Assembly (NCBI RefSeq): GCF_006345805.1
Contig: NC_043002.1
Span: forward strand, 18,352,001 to 18,416,000
DNA: 64,000 bases
Reading direction: 5' to 3'
From: Octopus sinensis
Lineage: Eukaryota
Position 1 is the stretch's first letter; every line of letters starts with the position of its first letter. The translations under genes and the position numbers were made by a program. Below are positions 9,359 to 54,767 of the stretch, in pieces. Below the pieces are notes generated by a model that was given only the letters and a program-made list of their open reading frames with translations, was not told where the DNA came from and searched no databases.

Positions 9359-9419
9359 AATATATATATATATATATACATACATGGAATAGTTATTATG
9401 AGGTATTGTGTAGAATATA

Positions 9420-9777
9420 TTGTATAAAGAGTCGTGGGTAAGACCAGGGCAATGCGAAGTAAAATGAAGGCAAATCACAAGAAAACAAATATATGAATCA
9501 ATATGCATTCAATATTTCGGGGTTATGACTCAATAACAGAAGGGTGCTACAGGAAGCTAGCTGGTTGCTATAGCAACAACTTTCCGGGCATGTCCGCTCC
9601 ACACACACACTCACACACACGCACATCTGCAATATTCGTTAATTTCTTGAGAATGGGGTCATAACCCTGAAATATTGAATGCAAGGTAAGTTTACATTAA
9701 TTCATATATTTGTTTTCTTGTGATTTGTCTTGCTTTTACTTCGCATTGTTCTTGCCTTACCCATGATCCTTTATGCA

Positions 9778-9778
<1 letters not shown>
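9420..9778. repeat. Inverted repeat (9420-9532 / 9655-9778) between (TA)n and (TACA)n
   Basis: CAAATCACAAGAAAACAAATATATGAAT / ATTCATATATTTGTTTTCTTGTGATTTG. Confidence 0.9.
9643..9680 (+). ncRNA. Type-I hammerhead, U3-A8 variant
   Basis: TTC-TTGAGAA-T-GGGG TCATAA CCC(T/C)-GAAATATT^GAA; palindromic stem III AATATT. Confidence 0.6.
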
Positions 9779-9810
<32 letters not shown>

Positions 9811-13687: not shown

Positions 13688-13707
13688 CATACATATATAT
13701 ATATATA

Positions 13708-14200
13708 TATTGTTATATTTCGGAATGGTCATTTTGCCAGTTTAGCCAATAAAAACACACGCGCTATATATTTGGTGTTATTTTGCTTCAGTGTTATTTT
13801 TTTTTTTTTTACATTAATCTTAATCTTATTTCGGCCAGAGTTCTTTCGTCACACTCCTGTGACCGCATCAGTGGTCCTTTGTTTTCTTCTTCCTTATTTG
13901 TGTCTCTCCTTACTAACCGTCAGCCATTTTGTATTGCGACTGGTCTGCACGAAGGAACTGTTTCCATTCATATAAATTATCCAGAAATATAAAGAAAAAC
14001 TTTTTGAGCAGAGGCGTAGGAGTGGCTGTATGGTAAGATTAATGTAAAAAAAATAAATATCACTGAAGCAAAATAACACCAAATATATAGTGCGTGTGTT
14101 TATATTGGCTAAACTGGCAAAATGACCATTCCGAAATATAACAATATCTGTTTCAACACACGACTTCACATAAAAAATCTTGCACAACAAATATTTAAAC

Positions 14201-14298: not shown

Positions 14299-15134
14299 GC
14301 GACGGGCTTCTTTCAGTTTCCATCTACCAAATCCACTCACAAAGCTTTGGTCGGCCCGAGGCTAGGCTATAGTAGAAGACACTTGCCCAAGGTGCCACAC
14401 AGTGGGACTGAACCCGGAACCATGTAGTTGGTAAGCAAGCTACTTACCACACAGCCACTCCTACGCCTCTGCTCAAAAAGTTTTTCTTTATATTTCTGGA
14501 TAATTTATATGAATGGAAACAGTTCCTTCGTGCAGACCAGTCGCAATACATTTTTATAAAATTAAATGAAATTTAAATGTAACTAAAATTAATAATCTAC
14601 ATAACTAAGTCACAGGAGTCGGACATGAAAGAAAATATTTCTAAAATAATGTCAATGAACTTAGTGAGTCCCATGCTATTTAAAAATGATTCTAATTTAT
14701 ATGCTATTTAGATGCAGGCTATTTATACAACAACTACACTTGCATGGCTGGTATTTTAGTCTCGGTAATTATATCTTAATTTTTCTTTTCAATTGAATCA
14801 ACCTTTTGTTATTTTTTATCTAAATAACTATTATAGAGAAAATGGATGGGCCATGCTGTAGTAGTTTGTTGAATGAGTCAAGTTTTGAAGCATTTTGAAA
14901 TAAATTTAATGTAGACGTCGCTGGGAAGATATGTTCTTCATAAAAATAATTATCGTACTAATTGAAGTAGTTTATGAATGGAGAAAATTATCTACGAGAC
15001 TTAAACGCTTGGGTCGATGGTGATGGAGAAGCTTATTAAATTTCAATCGAGTAAATGAACATTCAAATCGTTTTCTCCGCTTCTGTCTGCTCTTTCTCTT
15101 AGAAAAAAAATACTAAAATCAGAAACTCAGTCCC

Positions 15135-19558: not shown

Positions 19559-19898
19559 GATAATGTAAAGTATAGAAGCCATCTTAATATGGCTAACCAC
19601 AAAGGGAAGGGGATGTTACTGTAGCTCTATAGCCCCAGGAGATCGTCGTCTCCAGCTGGCTTTAGACACCATTTCAGTGCCCTTGAAGTATTTGCAAAGG
19701 GAGGCCATCCTTTTCTCGCAAGCCTGAGAAAGGGAAAGCGAGAACGGGATGGCCTCACTTTGCAAATACTTCAAGGGCACTGAAATAGTGTCTAAAACCA
19801 GCTGGAGACGACGATCTCCTGGGGCTATAGAGCTACAGTAACACACCCTCCCCTTTGTGGTTAGCCATATTAAGATGGCTTCTATACTTTACATTATC
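19559..19898. repeat. Near-perfect palindrome, 161-bp arms, 18-nt spacer
   Basis: 19559-19719 = rc of 19738-19898 with a handful of mismatches. Confidence 0.95.
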
Positions 19899-24180: not shown

Positions 24181-25834
24181 GCCATTATGTGGTTACTTGA
24201 TCTGCTAAAAATATTAGACCAGTCTCCTTCAAATCAGCCACAACGACACATCAAAACGATAAACCTTGTTTATAAAGAACTCTTCTAAGCAAATGTAAAT
24301 ATTTACTGAGTTAGCTAAACATGAAATAAAACACTTTTAAATGTTTTTAAGCAAACAATATTTTAAAAGATAATTTATGAAGTCTTCGCTTAAAAAGTCT
24401 ACCTAAATTTCAATAAGTTAACGAATTAAAAAGCGCCCAATATAACATTTATTTTTCTAAGAATGAAAATAACGGTAAAGTTAATAATATAAAATTCTTT
24501 TAAAGTCTCTTTGTATTTAAACTGAATATATCTCATATTAAAGATTGCGTTTTAAATGGGCAAACAATTTAATTTTAAAATTTTACCAACTTGCCGTCAG
24601 CAAAGAAACATATATTGAACAAGTAAAAACAAAAATTATATTTATTAAATGTCTTATTAATTAAATTTGGAACCTGGAGAATATGAAGAAATGAAAATAT
24701 TTTTAAATATTCTTTAAAAATACGTAGTCAATATAATTGCATAACATACAATATTTAATTGAGATGTACAAGTTCTTAACATCTAGGTAGTACTCTCATT
24801 ATATCATAATTGTAATAAGAGTTCAATCTTAGAATAAAATGGCTCATCAGTAAAAATCTGTTCAAAAATTCAGACGGCATGAATTACACTCACCCTAAAC
24901 ATTACTCAATCAATTTATTATTATTAAACCTTTTGCATATCATGAATTCTTAAGTTATATCTATTACTTATAGATGAATATTGACAAATTAACCTCTACA
25001 TTTATAAAGGAGTAAGATACCTATCTTTTTAAGAAAACAGCTATATCAATTAGTCTAACAGAAGTTGCCATTTGAATAAGTTATATTGCGAATAAAAATC
25101 CGATAATAAATCAAAATTTCCTGATGTTTAAACAACATAAATATGGACATACGAATACTCTCTATATGTATATAATTGTAGTTAAAGAGGTGATATAACA
25201 GTAAATAATGCAAAATAATTTTTATAAGGCGTTATACTAAGATTGACAGTTAAAATTATAGCCTAATTAGAATGACAGATTTCTGAATTTGTATTCCCGT
25301 GTGTAATTTGTTTTGCATTTATATTTTTAAATATTTATAGAGTTATTCTTTTTTTTCCATCAGAGTCTACAAATGCTGCAGATTCCAGATTTAGTTAATT
25401 AGACGTTTAATAAATTATTTTTCGTGGTATCAAATAGTTTTGTTTTTTGGCTTTTGATTATGAAATTTATACCACTATTACCAGTCAAATCAAGCTAAAC
25501 GCTTGATATACTTTCTTCATGTGAGAGTAGAAATTATTTGAAAATCTGAATACAGACCTGTCGCATATTTTGCAAATAATGTTCTTTCACAAAAGTGACT
25601 ACTCTTGTCGTGCCCAGCAATTATGTATCAATTTGGTCTCTAAAAATGACTTTGCTGTAGTTTCTTCGAGTTTCAATCAGACAACATAGTTTGACCACAG
25701 TTTGAATAAAAGCTCGGCAACTCAGCGTTCACAACTGAAGCAGCATTAAACATGGTATATATTAAATATGGTATATATATATGAAAAAATAAGTCAAAAT
25801 AGAAAATGCTAAAATAATTTTATAAAGAACATTT

Positions 25835-25872
25835 CAGTACCGGTTTCAGTCATTTTGAGACCTTTTCAACTG
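25835..25872 (-). ncRNA. Type-I hammerhead, U3-A8 variant (left arm)
   Basis: rc identical to 25986-26023. Confidence 0.75.
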
Positions 25873-25985
25873 TAACGATTAAATAATTAAATTTAGAAAA
25901 ATTTAGGAATATTTGAACACTATACAAATATTCCTTTAAAAAGACATTTCTTTTAATTTTTCTAAATTTAATTATTTAATCGATA

Positions 25986-26023
25986 CAGTTGAAAAGGTCT
26001 CAAAATGACTGAAACCGGTACTG
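25986..26023 (+). ncRNA. Type-I hammerhead, U3-A8 variant (right arm)
   Basis: CAG-TTGAAAA-GGTC TCAAAAT GACT-GAAACCGGTA^CTG; palindromic stem III ACCGGT; GUA triplet. Confidence 0.75.
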
Positions 26024-26170
26024 AAATGTTCTTTATAAAATTATTTTAGCATTTTCTATTTTGACTTATTTTTTCATATATATCAACTCGTGTGTTCCTT
26101 TTCATCCTTATACATATATATATAGAGAGAGAGAAGGTGGAAAAGTAACACACGAGTTGGTGTGGTGTTT

Positions 26171-27188
26171 ATATCTTCACAGATATGGTATGTTACAAAG
26201 AAATAAATATTTTGGGAGAGAGAAAGAAGTCGTTCCGCCAGTTTCGAGAGAACAACAGATACAATTTGGCGTCCTTGAGACTTATCAATAACGCGTACGC
26301 GCTTGTAGCGTGCCTAAACTTAAATGAACAACAGTATTCTTGTTAACGGTGTATTTCTGTTAAGTATGATATATATATACATATATATGTATAGGCACAT
26401 GAGTGGCTGTGTGGTAAGTAGCTTGCTAACCAACCACATGGTTCCGGGTTCAGTCCCACTGCGTGGCATCTTGGACAAGTGTCTTCTGCTATAGCCCCGG
26501 GCCGACCAATGCCTTGTGAGTGGATTTAGTAGACGGAAACTGAAAGAAGCCTGTCGTATATATGTATATATATGTATATGTCACTTAGCGGTTCGGCAAA
26601 AGAGACCGATAGAATAAGCACTGGGCTTACAAAGAATAAGTCCCGGGTCGATTTGCTCGACTAAAGGCGGTGCTCCAGCATGGCCGCAGTCAAAATGACT
26701 GAAACAAGTAAAAGAGTAAAAAAGACCAAAGAGTATATATGTGTGTGTGTGTGTAGAAAGAGAGAGAGAGCACGGGAGTATATCTAAATTTTCTTGTTCC
26801 TTTTTTTAATCGAACACGATAAGCATTTTTATATTTGTGCCATTAAGTGACTTTTATAAAATATTACTGCTTTCGATTGGTATATCCAACGTATCAAAAT
26901 TTGAACGTCAAGAATTAGGAAATTTAAATTAAAGTTTAGAAATCAAAACAGCTTGTTCTTATCTTTTTTGAGTAGTTACGAACATGTTTCGTCCGAGAGA
27001 AAATATGTATCTTCACAGATATGGTATGTTAAAAAGAAAAAATATATTGGGAGAGAGAAAGAAGTCGTTCAGCCAGATACGTTTTGGCCATCTTGAGACT
27101 TGTCAATAACGCGTACGCGCTTGTAGCGTGCCTAAACTTAAATGAACAACAGTATTCTTGTTAACGGTGTATTTCTGTTAAGTATGAC
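26171..27188 (+). repeat. Direct duplication of ~190 bp (26171-26369 and 27008-27188)
   Basis: Shared TCAATAACGCGTACGCGCTTGTAGCGTGCCTAAACTTAAATGAACAACAG... Confidence 0.9.
26394..26730 (+). mobile_element. Family-B SINE, internally deleted
   Basis: Matches the 4920 copy. Confidence 0.9.
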
Positions 27189-31229: not shown

Positions 31230-31920
31230 TTTCTAGCGAAGTAACATTCCAGATGGGGTATTAGGATTAAGTATTACAAGGTACAGTCTGAGAAATTGTT
31301 GACGTACTAGTTCATCCATTACTTCATTGTTCGCCTTTTTTAGGCCCTCTTAAAAGTATCGACAAAATGTTCCACTCGTTCATTTGACCTAGGATGATAC
31401 GGAGGAGTGATTAAATGTTCGATAACGAACATTTTACAAAACTTTTTTGACTCGTCTGAAGTAAGCTGAGTTCCATTATCAGACACAATGTTATCATGAA
31501 TACTAAATCTAGCGAACAATTCGTGTAAAAAACTAACTGTGACAGGGGATGTCGAATTTTTACACTTATGCACTTCAGGCCACTTAGAAAACCTGTCCGC
31601 CACAACAAGGTAGAAACTGTTAAGAGGCCCTGCATAATCAACGTGCAGTCTGGACCATAAAACATCTGTTTTTTGGCCACGGTTGCCATTTTGTGGTAGG
31701 TGATTTTACTGCTAGCGCACAACCTCTACATGCTTTCACAAGTTCTTCAAAGTCACAGTCCATTCTTGACCAATATCCATAACTTCTCAATAACGATTTC
31801 ATTCCCGAAATCCCTAGGTGACAAATGAGAAATTCCTTTTGCAATCGCTTCTGTAGTGTGGCTGGCACTACGACTCTTTGTGCGCAGATTAACACATTAT
31901 CACAAATTGGAAGCATGTTC
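31230..31920 (-). pseudogene. Gypsy-type LTR retrotransposon integrase fragment
   Basis: HLGISGMK..CRGC zinc-binding region; VSDNGTQL, PPYHPRSNERVEHFVDTFK catalytic core; frameshifted. Confidence 0.9.
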
Positions 31921-34312: not shown

Positions 34313-34392
34313 AATCGCTGACCAGCGGTTTCGCCTATTAACGAATAAATTACTTATGCAACCCTTCGTCCGTAGGACTCGTCAGTGCGATC
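34313..34392 (-). ncRNA. Type-I hammerhead with extended stem II (copy 1)
   Basis: rc: GATCGCA-CTGACGA-GTCCTA..ACGAAGGGTTGC ATAA GTAATTTATTCGT..TAGGC-GAAA-CC GCT GG-TC^AGCGATT; intact core. Confidence 0.85.
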
Positions 34393-34638: not shown

Positions 34639-34718
34639 AATCGCTGACCAGCGGTTTCGCCTATTAACGAATAAATTACTTATGCAACCCTTCGTCCGTA
34701 GGACTCGTCAGTGCGATC
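34639..34718 (-). ncRNA. Type-I hammerhead with extended stem II (copy 2)
   Basis: Same sequence as copy 1. Confidence 0.85.
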
Positions 34719-41628: not shown

Positions 41629-42337
41629 TATTTTAGCGTGCTTTCACTTCACTACCGAGCGCAGCTCTGTGTGCCTTGGGTATGTGCTGTGATTTTTTGT
41701 GATGCTCTGATGGTTATTGTATGGAAAGTGTTCTGCGTAGGATGTGTGCAGTGCCTAGTAGTGCAATTTTCTGTATGTTATATGTGTTTGTAAGTCCTGG
41801 TGTTTTTGTTATGTATTTGTCTGAATATTTTTTTATCATGCCTAATGCACCTACTATGATAGGAATTGTTTCTGTTTCAGATTCCACATTCTAGTTACCT
41901 CTATTTCCAGGTCTTTGTATTTTGAGAGTTTCTCCATTTCTTTTAGAAACACGTTGTCATCTGCCGGTACTGATACATCAATTAGAAAGCATTTTTTTCT
42001 TCATGGTCTCTGACAACTATATCTGGTCTGTTGGCCTTAATTTCTCTATCTGTGTGTATCGGCATATCCCAGAGTATGGTTGCTTTCTCGTTTTCTGTGA
42101 CCTTTTCTGGTGTGTGCCTATACCATCTTTTTTCTGTTGTTATTCCATAATGTTGGCATAGCTTCCAATGTATGTAAGTTCCAACTCTGTCATGTCTGTG
42201 AATATATTCCTTCTTAGCCAGGACTGGGCAGCTAGAGATAATATGATTTATTGTTTCTTGTCCATCTCCACATATTCTGCAGTTATTTGTAATATTTCTT
42301 TTCATTACATGTTTTTGGTAATTTCTGGTGGGGAGGC
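41600..42337 (-). mobile_element. 5'-truncated Dong/R4-like RLE non-LTR retrotransposon in a (TAA)n tract
   Basis: CRICGDGQETINHIISSC knuckle, RHD, NRPDIVVRD, KYKDL, ..GTAHILRRTLS*; TAA repeats at both ends. Confidence 0.85.
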
Positions 42338-42375
42338 TTATTATTATTATTATTATCATTATTATTATTATTATA

Positions 42376-42426
<51 letters not shown>

Positions 42427-42539
42427 AATAATAATAATAATATCTTATTTTCTATTTGTATGTATGTATGCAAACTGATCTTCAAACTGATTTTCTTGAA
42501 CGTTTCCTAAGCAAGGGTGAGTGTTGGGTTCATTACTTT

Positions 42540-53420: not shown

Positions 53421-53973
53421 ATTGGGTTGCCGATTTATAGTAGCTTACCTTTCGACTTATTTTAGAACATGGTTGAGTCCATAAAATAGGATTTGACTAC
53501 ACCTCCATTTAGAGTGCAGTTTAAGCTACCTTTTTGTGGAAGAATGTTTATGTTCCTATAACCTGTGTTAATTCTGTAACCCTTTAAAATGGAAAATAAG
53601 AAAGTTCATTTTCGGCGCTTGATGCTTTGGTAACCAGACAAAAATTGCTGCAGCTCGGCTGGGATGTGTTACTAAACTCTCTATTTTCACAAGATTTTGC
53701 TGCTTCAGATTTCCACTTATTCAGGTCTCTGCAGAATAGTCTTAATGGTAAAAAGTTCAATTCTTTCGATGACGTAAAAAGATACCTTGATGAATTCTTT
53801 GCCATGAAGCCACGTCAATTATGGGAAGAGGGTATTTTCAAGTTAAAGGAAAGATGGAGACACATTGTGCAACAAAATGATTCATATTTGGTTGATAAAA
53901 AATGTAATGGCAAGTATTTATTGATCTCTTTCTTTCCTTTAAAAATCGGCACGAACTTTCCGGACAACCCAAT
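53421..53973 (+). mobile_element. Internally deleted mariner with both TIRs
   Basis: TATTGGGTTG.. / ..CAACCCAATA; QLGWDVL..DFAASDFHLFRSLQNSL..GIFKLKERW. Confidence 0.85.
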
Positions 53974-54767
53974 AGAAATAAACTCCATTCGTATAGAACT
54001 TCCTTTCCTATAAAGATTGATATAAATGTGAATAATTAAACTATGTTATTAGAAGAAAATTTTGTACAGGTTTAGTTATAAAGTAGATAGATACATACAT
54101 ACATACATACATACAAACATAAATACACACATACATACACACATACATACATACATACATACATTCATACATACATACATACATCCACACATACATACAT
54201 ACATACATACATACATACATACATACATACATACATACATACATACATACATACATACATACATAGAAAATTGATGTATGAAGATCAGAAAAAAATTCCA
54301 CAGTAAATAAGAGCTCAACAACAGGTCGTTAAACTCTACGTTATTACTTGGCAGTAAATCCAAGAGCGGCCATTTGCATCTGTGTACTTAATCGGCTTAA
54401 ATGATCTTTATCAGTAACATATATACATACATGCGCGCTCGCGCACACACACACACACACACACATATTTAAATAAATGTATATGTATATAAACATAGAG
54501 AAAGCAAAAAGTAAATACAAATCGCAAAAGTACAAGAGATGTTCACAATTAAAATTAATGAGTCGAAGCTCAAAGAAAAGACTGAGTAAAAATTGTACAG
54601 TAACAGTTATAATTTTTATACTAAAGGAAAGTCCAGAAGCGAAGAAGAAAGGGGATAGGCAAACAGAGCCAATAGGAAACGCACGTGAGTTACATTTACA
54701 TGTTTGCCCTTTAACTCCATATATATAGAGAGAGTAGTCACCATATTTCATTCCATATTGGCTGTCT

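What the first reader, a model, noticed from the sequence alone, without database searches (positions are those of the whole stretch)
25772..26083. Palindrome giving an intact U3-A8 hammerhead on both strands
Both arms hold the identical motif CAG-TTGAAAA-GGTC..GACT-GAAACCGGTA-CTG, so transcription in either direction yields one ribozyme plus its full antisense. That antisense could silence it or make about 130 bp of dsRNA. It is unrelated in sequence to the 9643 family yet shows the same C3-G8 to U3-A8 swap, which argues for selection on catalysis. A 10-bp hairpin in the spacer suggests snap-back priming.
Basis: partly seen in the sequence, partly recalled or inferred. Interest (0 to 1): 0.7.

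Follow-up and report, generated by a model that had tools for sequence, protein, structure and literature searches.

The report
Penelope-type fold-back stub with hammerhead
The palindrome is real: it is two head-to-head tail ends of a very abundant repeat, likely a Penelope-like jumping gene, each with a hammerhead-ribozyme motif of an already published variant that the hairpin is predicted to shut off, so it is likely ordinary insertion debris.

Summary
Confirmed: arms 25775-25903 and 25955-26083 match at 128 of 129 bases, each holding a minimal type I hammerhead motif with a U3-A8 core (3 of 20,000 arm shuffles give one). The spacer "hairpin" is the inner 11 bp of the same palindrome. Public contigs show the arm is a very high-copy repeat. 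Its usual 3' ends match the outer arm ends, an optional tail follows only the right arm, and the pivot sits on a short native inverted repeat. That is the published Penelope-like element (PLE) insertion shape. U3-A8 cores and opposite-strand motif pairs were reported in PLEs in 2014. In the family, the four variable sites in the ribozyme span fall on two predicted base pairs (unphased, post hoc P about 5e-4), supporting selection on the fold in source elements. This copy is weaker: G-U where most of the family has G10.1-C11.1, a helix III needing a same-sense partner, and a predicted long hairpin that abolishes the fold. U3 can also pair with A17, a likely trap. No link to a PLE reading frame could be tested; cleavage is untested. 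Verdict: new member of a known kind, low interest.

The parts
25772..25781 (.). (TA)n run at the left outer end; probable target site
   Evidence: Sequence; the same 10-mer recurs at 26115-26124; a target duplication cannot be told from microsatellite
25775..25915 (-). Left arm: inverted, 5'-truncated copy of the repeat's 3' end, 3' end outward; lacks 18 nt present in the right arm; no tail
25835..25872 (-). Minimal type I hammerhead motif, U3-A8 core; keeps the family T that gives a predicted 3 bp + 1x1 loop + 4 bp helix I
25905..25935 (.). Fold-back pivot: 11-bp stem, 9-nt loop (25916-25924). The inner 6-7 bp and loop are native family sequence; family contigs depart from the window left of 25909-25910
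   Evidence: tables 2, 7, 8
25925..26083 (+). Right arm: sense 3' end of a very high-copy repeat, with the 18-nt stretch about 25935-25952 and three near-private changes (25943, 25946, 25983)
25986..26023 (+). Minimal type I hammerhead motif: helix I 25986-88/26021-23; core TTGAAAA 25989-95; helix II 25996-99/26007-10 (first pair G-U); GAAA 26011-14; palindromic ACCGGT 26014-19; predicted cut 3' of A26020
26084..26113 (+). One-sided tail: family contigs run past 26083 to at least 26098; the end at about 26113 is inferred from the next (TA)n run
   Evidence: table 2 and records 6, 16, 22, 23; the tool cut reads at 26099-26140
26114..26133 (.). (TA)n(GA)n run at the right outer end
26134..26369 (-). 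Older neighbour facing the same microsatellite; ends in a 23-of-26 copy of the tail; partly duplicated at 27008-27187; decayed TTGAYAA-GTCTCAAG motif, possibly a related family
   Evidence: 27008-27187 against the arm: 4 of 1,000 shuffles as high; 26160-26369: 169 of 1,000

Best explanation
This is a head-to-head pair of 3' ends of one very abundant repeat, likely a single insertion of a Penelope-like retroelement (or a non-coding derivative moved by one) whose copying likely folded back at a short native hairpin, leaving two hammerhead motifs that are predicted to be inactive here. Shown: the arms, the high-copy family, its 3' ends at (TA)n, the one-sided tail, the native inverted repeat at the pivot, and both arms sharing the same minority letters. 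Inferred steps: the element's endonuclease nicks AT-rich DNA; reverse transcription starts at the element's 3' end or tail; it stops about 65-75 nt upstream of the ribozyme core; the cDNA end snaps back on the 6-7-bp native repeat (or two cDNAs primed from opposite nicks anneal there) and the same sequence is copied outward again, skipping 18 nt. In source elements the hammerhead likely works as a same-sense dimer through the palindromic helix III, probably slowly and with help from the element's protein. At this locus any read-through RNA makes the antisense arm first and would form a hairpin of about 140 bp that buries the motif.
For: High copy: summed contig depth over the arm is 0.25-1.8 million in X1 against about 42-106 on the right flank, with the same contrast in X4; X13 shows up to 95,000 on the arm (not a copy count). 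Loose ends behind 26071, 26072 and 26083 run into (TA)n in all 4 runs laid; some contigs continue to 26088-26098, so the extension is optional and follows only the right arm. Family contigs match from 25909-25910 rightward and carry other letters upstream, so the outer left stem letters are made by inversion. Both arms carry the letters that are minority in the family at 26010, 26060 and 26068. The 4 family-variable sites within 25981-26028 are 25981, 25996, 26010 and 26028, which are the two sides of two predicted pairs (P=4.7e-4 for 4 random sites of 48 and 14 pairs, post hoc; 25983 dropped as private to the right arm). C at 11.1 restores G10.1-C11.1 in 56-80% of depth. No change of 3% or more is listed at G26011 or at the CpG 26016-17, which plain CpG decay would hit. 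Literature: UUGAAAA core in a PLE-linked Schistosoma motif, and a shrimp PLE motif with no extra base, 4-bp helix II, A10.1-U11.1, 6-nt palindrome and A17 (PMC4209133 supplement); opposite-strand pairs; inverted 5'-truncated copy and one-sided 30-40-bp tail; palindromes at head-to-head junctions; both strands nicked and extended, AT-rich targets. Folding: full palindrome -194 and -195.5 kcal/mol, probability of helices I and II 0.0 on both strands. A second outward-facing inverted pair with a U3-A8 motif lies at 9416-9782.
Against: No PLE reading frame is linked: no genome is held, and 4 collection scans found no relative. Family letters are not phased, so the compensatory reading of 25996/26010 and 25981/26028 is suggested, not shown; the G>A sides are rare in the DNA runs (0.2-1.3% and 3.5-3.7%). 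Absence of variable sites from the 23 core, helix I and helix III positions is not significant on its own (0 of 11, P=0.14). No listed contig bridges the pivot. The tail end and any target duplication are unresolved. The motif lacks the extra base between positions 9 and 10.1 of the animal PLE consensus. In arm-length RNA the helix II probability is 0.006 or less.
Confidence: 0.8

Rival explanations
1. A selected two-way ribozyme/antisense switch at this locus.
For: Arms are 99% alike and the core is complete in both; a long double-stranded RNA would form if transcribed.
Against: Arm identity fits a young single insertion; this copy has the weaker G-U pair and a private loss of a helix I pair; the inverted partner cannot supply the same-sense dimer; the fold has probability 0.0 in the full hairpin; the shape is the usual PLE by-product.
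Confidence: 0.05
2. A miniature inverted-repeat DNA transposon (MITE or fold-back) with an incidental hammerhead-like string.
For: Long arms, short centre, TA runs at both ends; another fold-back with 161-bp arms lies at 19559-19898; one control core also had a real hit.
Against: The family sequence continues upstream of the pivot instead of mirroring; one-sided optional tail; three different 3' ends; variable sites sit on predicted RNA pairs; 3 of 20,000 shuffles give the motif.
Confidence: 0.05
3. 3' end of a LINE or SINE unrelated to PLEs, inverted by twin priming, with a hammerhead or a tail stem-loop that only resembles one.
For: (TA)n at the 3' ends; the local SINE tail shares the helix II-GAAAC-GTA half of the motif (1 of 1,000 shuffles as high).
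Against: Twin priming (recalled, not checked here) inverts different, non-overlapping parts of an element, not the same 3' end twice; the optional tail and minimal type I motif are PLE marks; the SINE tail lacks the core strand.
Confidence: 0.07
4. Assembly or library fold-back artefact.
For: No listed contig bridges the pivot; PLE inverted structures are known to trouble assemblies.
Against: The flanks are not mirrored; the arms differ by one base and an 18-nt gap; they stop at the family's own 3' end; bins 25880-25894 are covered in 3 of 4 runs.
Confidence: 0.03

Closest known systems
Minimal and near-minimal type I hammerheads in pseudo-LTRs of animal Penelope-like elements, including the U3-A8 variant of Schistosoma Cercyon (Cervera and De la Pena 2014, PMC4209133)
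   Same: Type I topology, short helix I, palindromic helix III needing a dimer, U3-A8 core (the same UUGAAAA string is listed), G10.1-C11.1 in the family majority, AT-rich flanks, pairs on opposite strands 100-700 bp apart.
   Different: No extra base between 9 and 10.1; 4-bp helix II; U3 together with A17, which allows a U3-A17 pair (the U3-A8 rows seen in the supplement part read end in other bases at 17); link to a PLE frame not shown here.
Insertion unit of endonuclease-bearing PLEs (Arkhipova et al. 2013, PMC3846280; Craig et al. 2021, 10.1101/2021.04.23.441226; PMC11167929)
   Same: Head-to-head inverted 5'-truncated copy, palindrome at the junction, optional one-sided tail of about 30 nt, AT-rich or microsatellite target, hammerhead about 60-90 nt from the 3' ends.
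   Different: Only two short ends with no reading frame; target duplication not resolvable; tail end not fixed.
Animal non-LTR retrozymes (10.64898/2026.07.22.740005)
   Same: Non-coding, type I hammerhead, proposed to derive from PLE pseudo-LTRs.
   Different: Retrozymes are head-to-tail tandem repeats; this is an inverted pair that cannot form the cis dimer.
Rfam hammerhead clan CL00010 (HH9 RF02275, Hammerhead_1 RF00163)
   Same: Weak HH9 alignment in the right register.
   Different: 13.5 bits against a gathering score of 52; not a member by score.

Membership tests
Type I minimal hammerhead (PLE type) | Core YUGANRA...GAAA...UH with a 3-8 Watson-Crick pair | tested here: met
   UUGAAAA, GAAA, U16.1-A17 in both arms; no family change of 3% or more listed there
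Type I minimal hammerhead (PLE type) | Helices I and II can form, with G10.1-C11.1 | tested here: inconclusive
   Family majority G-C, this copy G-U; helix II probability 0.23-0.54 in 58-nt pieces, 0.006 or less in whole arms, 0.0 in the palindrome
Type I minimal hammerhead (PLE type) | Palindromic helix III allowing a dimer | tested here: met
   ACCGGU self-duplex -8.3 kcal/mol; the left-arm cofold minimum holds both helices II, the shared helix III and helix I, with U3 paired to A17
Type I minimal hammerhead (PLE type) | Unpaired base between 9 and 10.1 (consensus trait) | tested here: not met
   Absent; also absent in the published shrimp PLE motif, so not a strict requirement
Type I minimal hammerhead (PLE type) | Site-specific self-cleavage | not testable with these tools
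   Needs an assay
Rfam HH9 / Hammerhead_1 | Score at or above the gathering threshold | tested here: not met
   HH9 13.5 of 52 bits; no hit at E<=1 window-wide
Endonuclease-bearing Penelope-like element | Reverse transcriptase plus GIY-YIG frame upstream of the pseudo-LTR | not testable with these tools
   No genome held; only 30 upstream letters seen; no relatives in 4 scans
Endonuclease-bearing Penelope-like element | Head-to-head inverted 5'-truncated copy with a palindrome at the junction | tested here: met
   compare
Endonuclease-bearing Penelope-like element | Optional 30-40-bp tail on one end | tested here: inconclusive
   One-sided and optional, seen to at least 15 nt; the rest was cut by the tool's repeat handling
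Endonuclease-bearing Penelope-like element | Target-site duplication | tested here: inconclusive
   Only a shared (TA)5
Animal non-LTR retrozyme | Head-to-tail tandem units each with a hammerhead | tested here: not met
   Inverted pair only; no other arm copy in the window; other loci not seen
MITE / fold-back DNA transposon | Both ends are fixed terminal inverted repeats of a symmetric unit | tested here: not met
   Family continues upstream of the pivot and has several 3' ends plus a one-sided tail

The most novel reading that the evidence does not exclude
This abundant family carries a hammerhead with a built-in off state: U3 pairs with the cut-site base A17, like the C3-G17 trap known from mutants, and is freed only by dimer formation or the element's protein. 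The native hairpin 65-75 nt upstream makes fold-back stubs arise again and again at one pivot, seeding many near-perfect double-stranded RNAs that silence the family. The local SINE tail may descend from the 3' half of such a ribozyme.
Probability: 0.1. Interest if true: 0.45.

Novelty: new member of a known kind. Interest (0 to 1): 0.17.

Why it matters
As it stands it adds one more, probably uncatalogued, hammerhead-bearing Penelope-type family and a clean example of a fold-back pivot on a native hairpin. The role of PLE hammerheads is still open (in the lizard element cleavage needed the protein and was not needed for insertion in vitro, PMC11167929). A very high-copy family with U3 and A17 together would be a handy natural test of whether a core-trapping pair regulates cleavage. 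This single locus is unlikely to be functional.

Tried and rejected
Own-genome search: no genome is held. Motif scans found 0 matches in viral contigs, metagenome contigs and genome contigs; these collections are not meant to hold animal repeats, so the blanks say little. Earlier findings by sequence and by place: none; one word search also empty. Expression: no RNA holder listed on record. Run X15 is only guessed to be RNA and is kept as contigs; it holds the family and shows a dip over the motif, but contigs give no strand, end or level, so this was not used. Depth was not turned into a copy number; the rough tail shares (7-58%) rest on assuming cover stops at 26098 and are not relied on. 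Relation to the 9647 arm and to the 14034-14147 arm: rejected (583 and 959 of 1,000 shuffles as high). Core invariance alone: not significant (P=0.14). No useful reading frame in the arm; one frame is open from 25910 to a stop at 25937-25939, too short to test. The spacer hairpin as a separate priming element: rejected, it is the palindrome's own centre. Plain CpG decay as the source of family variation: disfavoured, since the partner-strand changes are not listed. No covariance model was built, as the window holds too few independent copies. The paper on PLE hammerhead variants that cleave as dimers (PMC5785218) is not held; only its title was seen, and it may already list U3-with-A17 variants. 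Supplement file 1 of PMC4209133 was not searched, and parts 1 and 3 of file 2 were only term-searched.

Full report
Setting. The window is AT-rich, microsatellite- and SINE-rich eukaryotic DNA with no real gene near the finding. The repeat types look cephalopod-like to me from memory; no call named the host. No genome is held, so family evidence comes from 4 of the 24 runs listed, laid as contigs on 25880-26300 (2,704, 1,705, 1,008 and 243 contigs laid).

Observation. The arms 25775-25903 and 25955-26083 match at 128 of 129 bases. Each holds helix I CAG/CTG, core TTGAAAA, helix II GGTC/GACT, GAAA, a palindromic ACCGGT and A at position 17. A strict descriptor finds 3 U3-A8 hits in the window (both arms and +9647) against a mean of 0.017 in 60 shuffled windows; 3 of 20,000 arm shuffles give a hit; the control core C3-A8 has 1 real hit. 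Rfam gives only a weak HH9 alignment, 13.5 bits against 52, and nothing here at E<=1 over the whole window.

True shape. Aligned outward from the loop at 25916-25924, the palindrome is continuous: the "spacer hairpin" is its inner 11 bp, and the rest of the spacer is an 18-nt stretch present only in the right arm. Both motifs point outward, so this is a head-to-head pair of 3' ends.

The family. Summed depth over the arm is 0.25-1.8 million in X1 against about 42-106 on the right flank, with the same contrast in X4, so the arm is a very high-copy repeat (not a copy count). Contigs match from 25909-25910 rightward and carry other letters upstream. The inner 6-7 bp of the stem and the loop are therefore native, and the outer left letters were made by inversion. 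Loose ends behind 26071, 26072 and 26083 run into (TA)n in all 4 runs, while some contigs go on to 26088-26098: an optional extension that follows only the right arm. Its end at about 26113 is inferred from the next (TA)n run. Both arms share letters that are minority in the family at 26010, 26060 and 26068, pointing to one template.

Selection. Of 14 variable positions in the family span, 3 are near-fixed differences private to the right arm (25943, 25946, 25983) and were dropped; 11 vary in the family. Four of the 11 lie in 25981-26028, and they are the two sides of two predicted pairs, 25981:26028 and 25996:26010 (P=4.7e-4, post hoc, span chosen by me). C at 26010 (56, 80, 74, 64% in the four runs) gives the canonical G10.1-C11.1. 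Plain CpG decay would also hit G26011 and 26016-17, where nothing is listed at 3% or more. Against: the letters are not phased, the G>A sides are rare in the DNA runs, and 0 of 11 variable sites in 23 constrained positions is not significant alone (P=0.14). So the fold was likely selected in source elements; nothing shows selection on this copy.

Activity here. Helix III cannot close in one molecule (2-nt loop) and needs a same-sense partner, which an inverted copy cannot give in cis. In the full palindrome the hairpin is -194 to -195.5 kcal/mol and helices I and II have probability 0.0; read-through from either side makes the antisense arm first. In 58-nt pieces helix II reaches 0.23-0.54. 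The left-arm two-strand minimum (-21.9) is close to a double hammerhead but pairs U3 with A17; the right-arm minimum (-19.9) is not a hammerhead. A pair between 3 and 17 is the proposed cause of the at least 300-fold drop of G17 minimal hammerheads (PMC3884650, passages). Cleavage is untested.

Mechanism (inferred). Nicking of AT-rich DNA, reverse transcription from the element's 3' end or tail, early stop, snap-back on the native repeat or annealing of two oppositely primed cDNAs there, then outward copying with an 18-nt skip. The two routes are not told apart here.

What is known. PMC4209133 (parts 1-2 of 4 of the text; supplement file 2 part 2 of 3 read, the rest term-searched; file 1 not searched) reports U3-A8 in Schistosoma Cercyon PLEs with about 1,300 hits, dual motifs 100-700 bp apart on opposite strands, low activity and only as multimers. 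10.1101/2021.04.23.441226 (passages) gives the inverted 5'-truncated copy and one-sided 30-40-bp tail. PMC3846280 (passages) reads palindromes at head-to-head junctions as self-priming. PMC11167929 (passages and part 2 of section 3) shows both strands nicked and extended, two start sites bounding the tail, and a protein-assisted hammerhead not needed for insertion in vitro. PMC6765202 (passages) reviews the dimer need. 10.64898/2026.07.22.740005 (part 1 of 5) ties retrozymes to PLE pseudo-LTRs. PMC13282606 (part 1 of 3 and term search) lists 31 recently active Penelope-like families in Octopus vulgaris and never mentions hammerheads. PMC7943196 (passages) added nothing. Searches for hammerheads in octopus or cephalopods (listings only) showed no paper devoted to them; the library lacks most subscription papers, including PMC5785218.

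Verdict. It works like the terminal fold-back stub of an endonuclease-bearing PLE. Membership of an autonomous PLE family is not shown, because the reading frame could not be reached; a non-coding derivative fits as well. New member of a known kind, interest 0.17. The points worth keeping are the U3-with-A17 trap and the pivot on a native hairpin.

Noticed in passing
window 34314-34391 and 34640-34717, minus strand: Two identical C3-G8 type I hammerhead-like motifs (Rfam RF00163, 25.3 bits, gathering 34) in a 326-bp tandem repeat, retrozyme-like, with a long insert on the 3' side of helix II.
   Followed up: partly
window 9416-9529 and 9658-9782: Second outward-facing inverted pair; U3-A8 minimal motif at +9647 with the extra base typical of PLE motifs, followed by a splice-donor-like GTAAGT; the left copy lacks the core strand.
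   Followed up: partly
window 26686-26710, also 5332, 52136, 1575: The 3' tail of the common SINE resembles the helix II-GAAAC-GTA half of this motif (1 of 1,000 shuffles as high, post hoc) but has no core strand; unexplained.
   Followed up: partly
window 26134-26369 and 27008-27187, minus strand: Low-copy partial tandem with a 23-of-26 copy of the tail and a decayed TTGAYAA-GTCTCAAG motif; possibly an older related family that served as the insertion site.
   Followed up: partly
window 13707-13822 / 14034-14147 and 13930-14037 / 14443-14550: Two interleaved inverted pairs, 95-99% alike, with no hammerhead hit from the descriptor used.
   Followed up: no
window 19559-19898: Fold-back with 161-bp arms, 95% alike, 18-nt centre; MITE-like, no hammerhead hit.
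   Followed up: no
window 25880-25894: Depth of 1,024 in X1, far above the unique flank, and one X4 contig with 17 gap letters hint that the 18-nt skip or the same pivot recurs at other loci.
   Followed up: no
window 31340-31916, 41982-42506, 53600-54013, minus, minus and plus strands: Broken frames that look by eye like an LTR-retrotransposon integrase, a LINE C-terminus and a mariner transposase (labels from memory, not searched).
   Followed up: no
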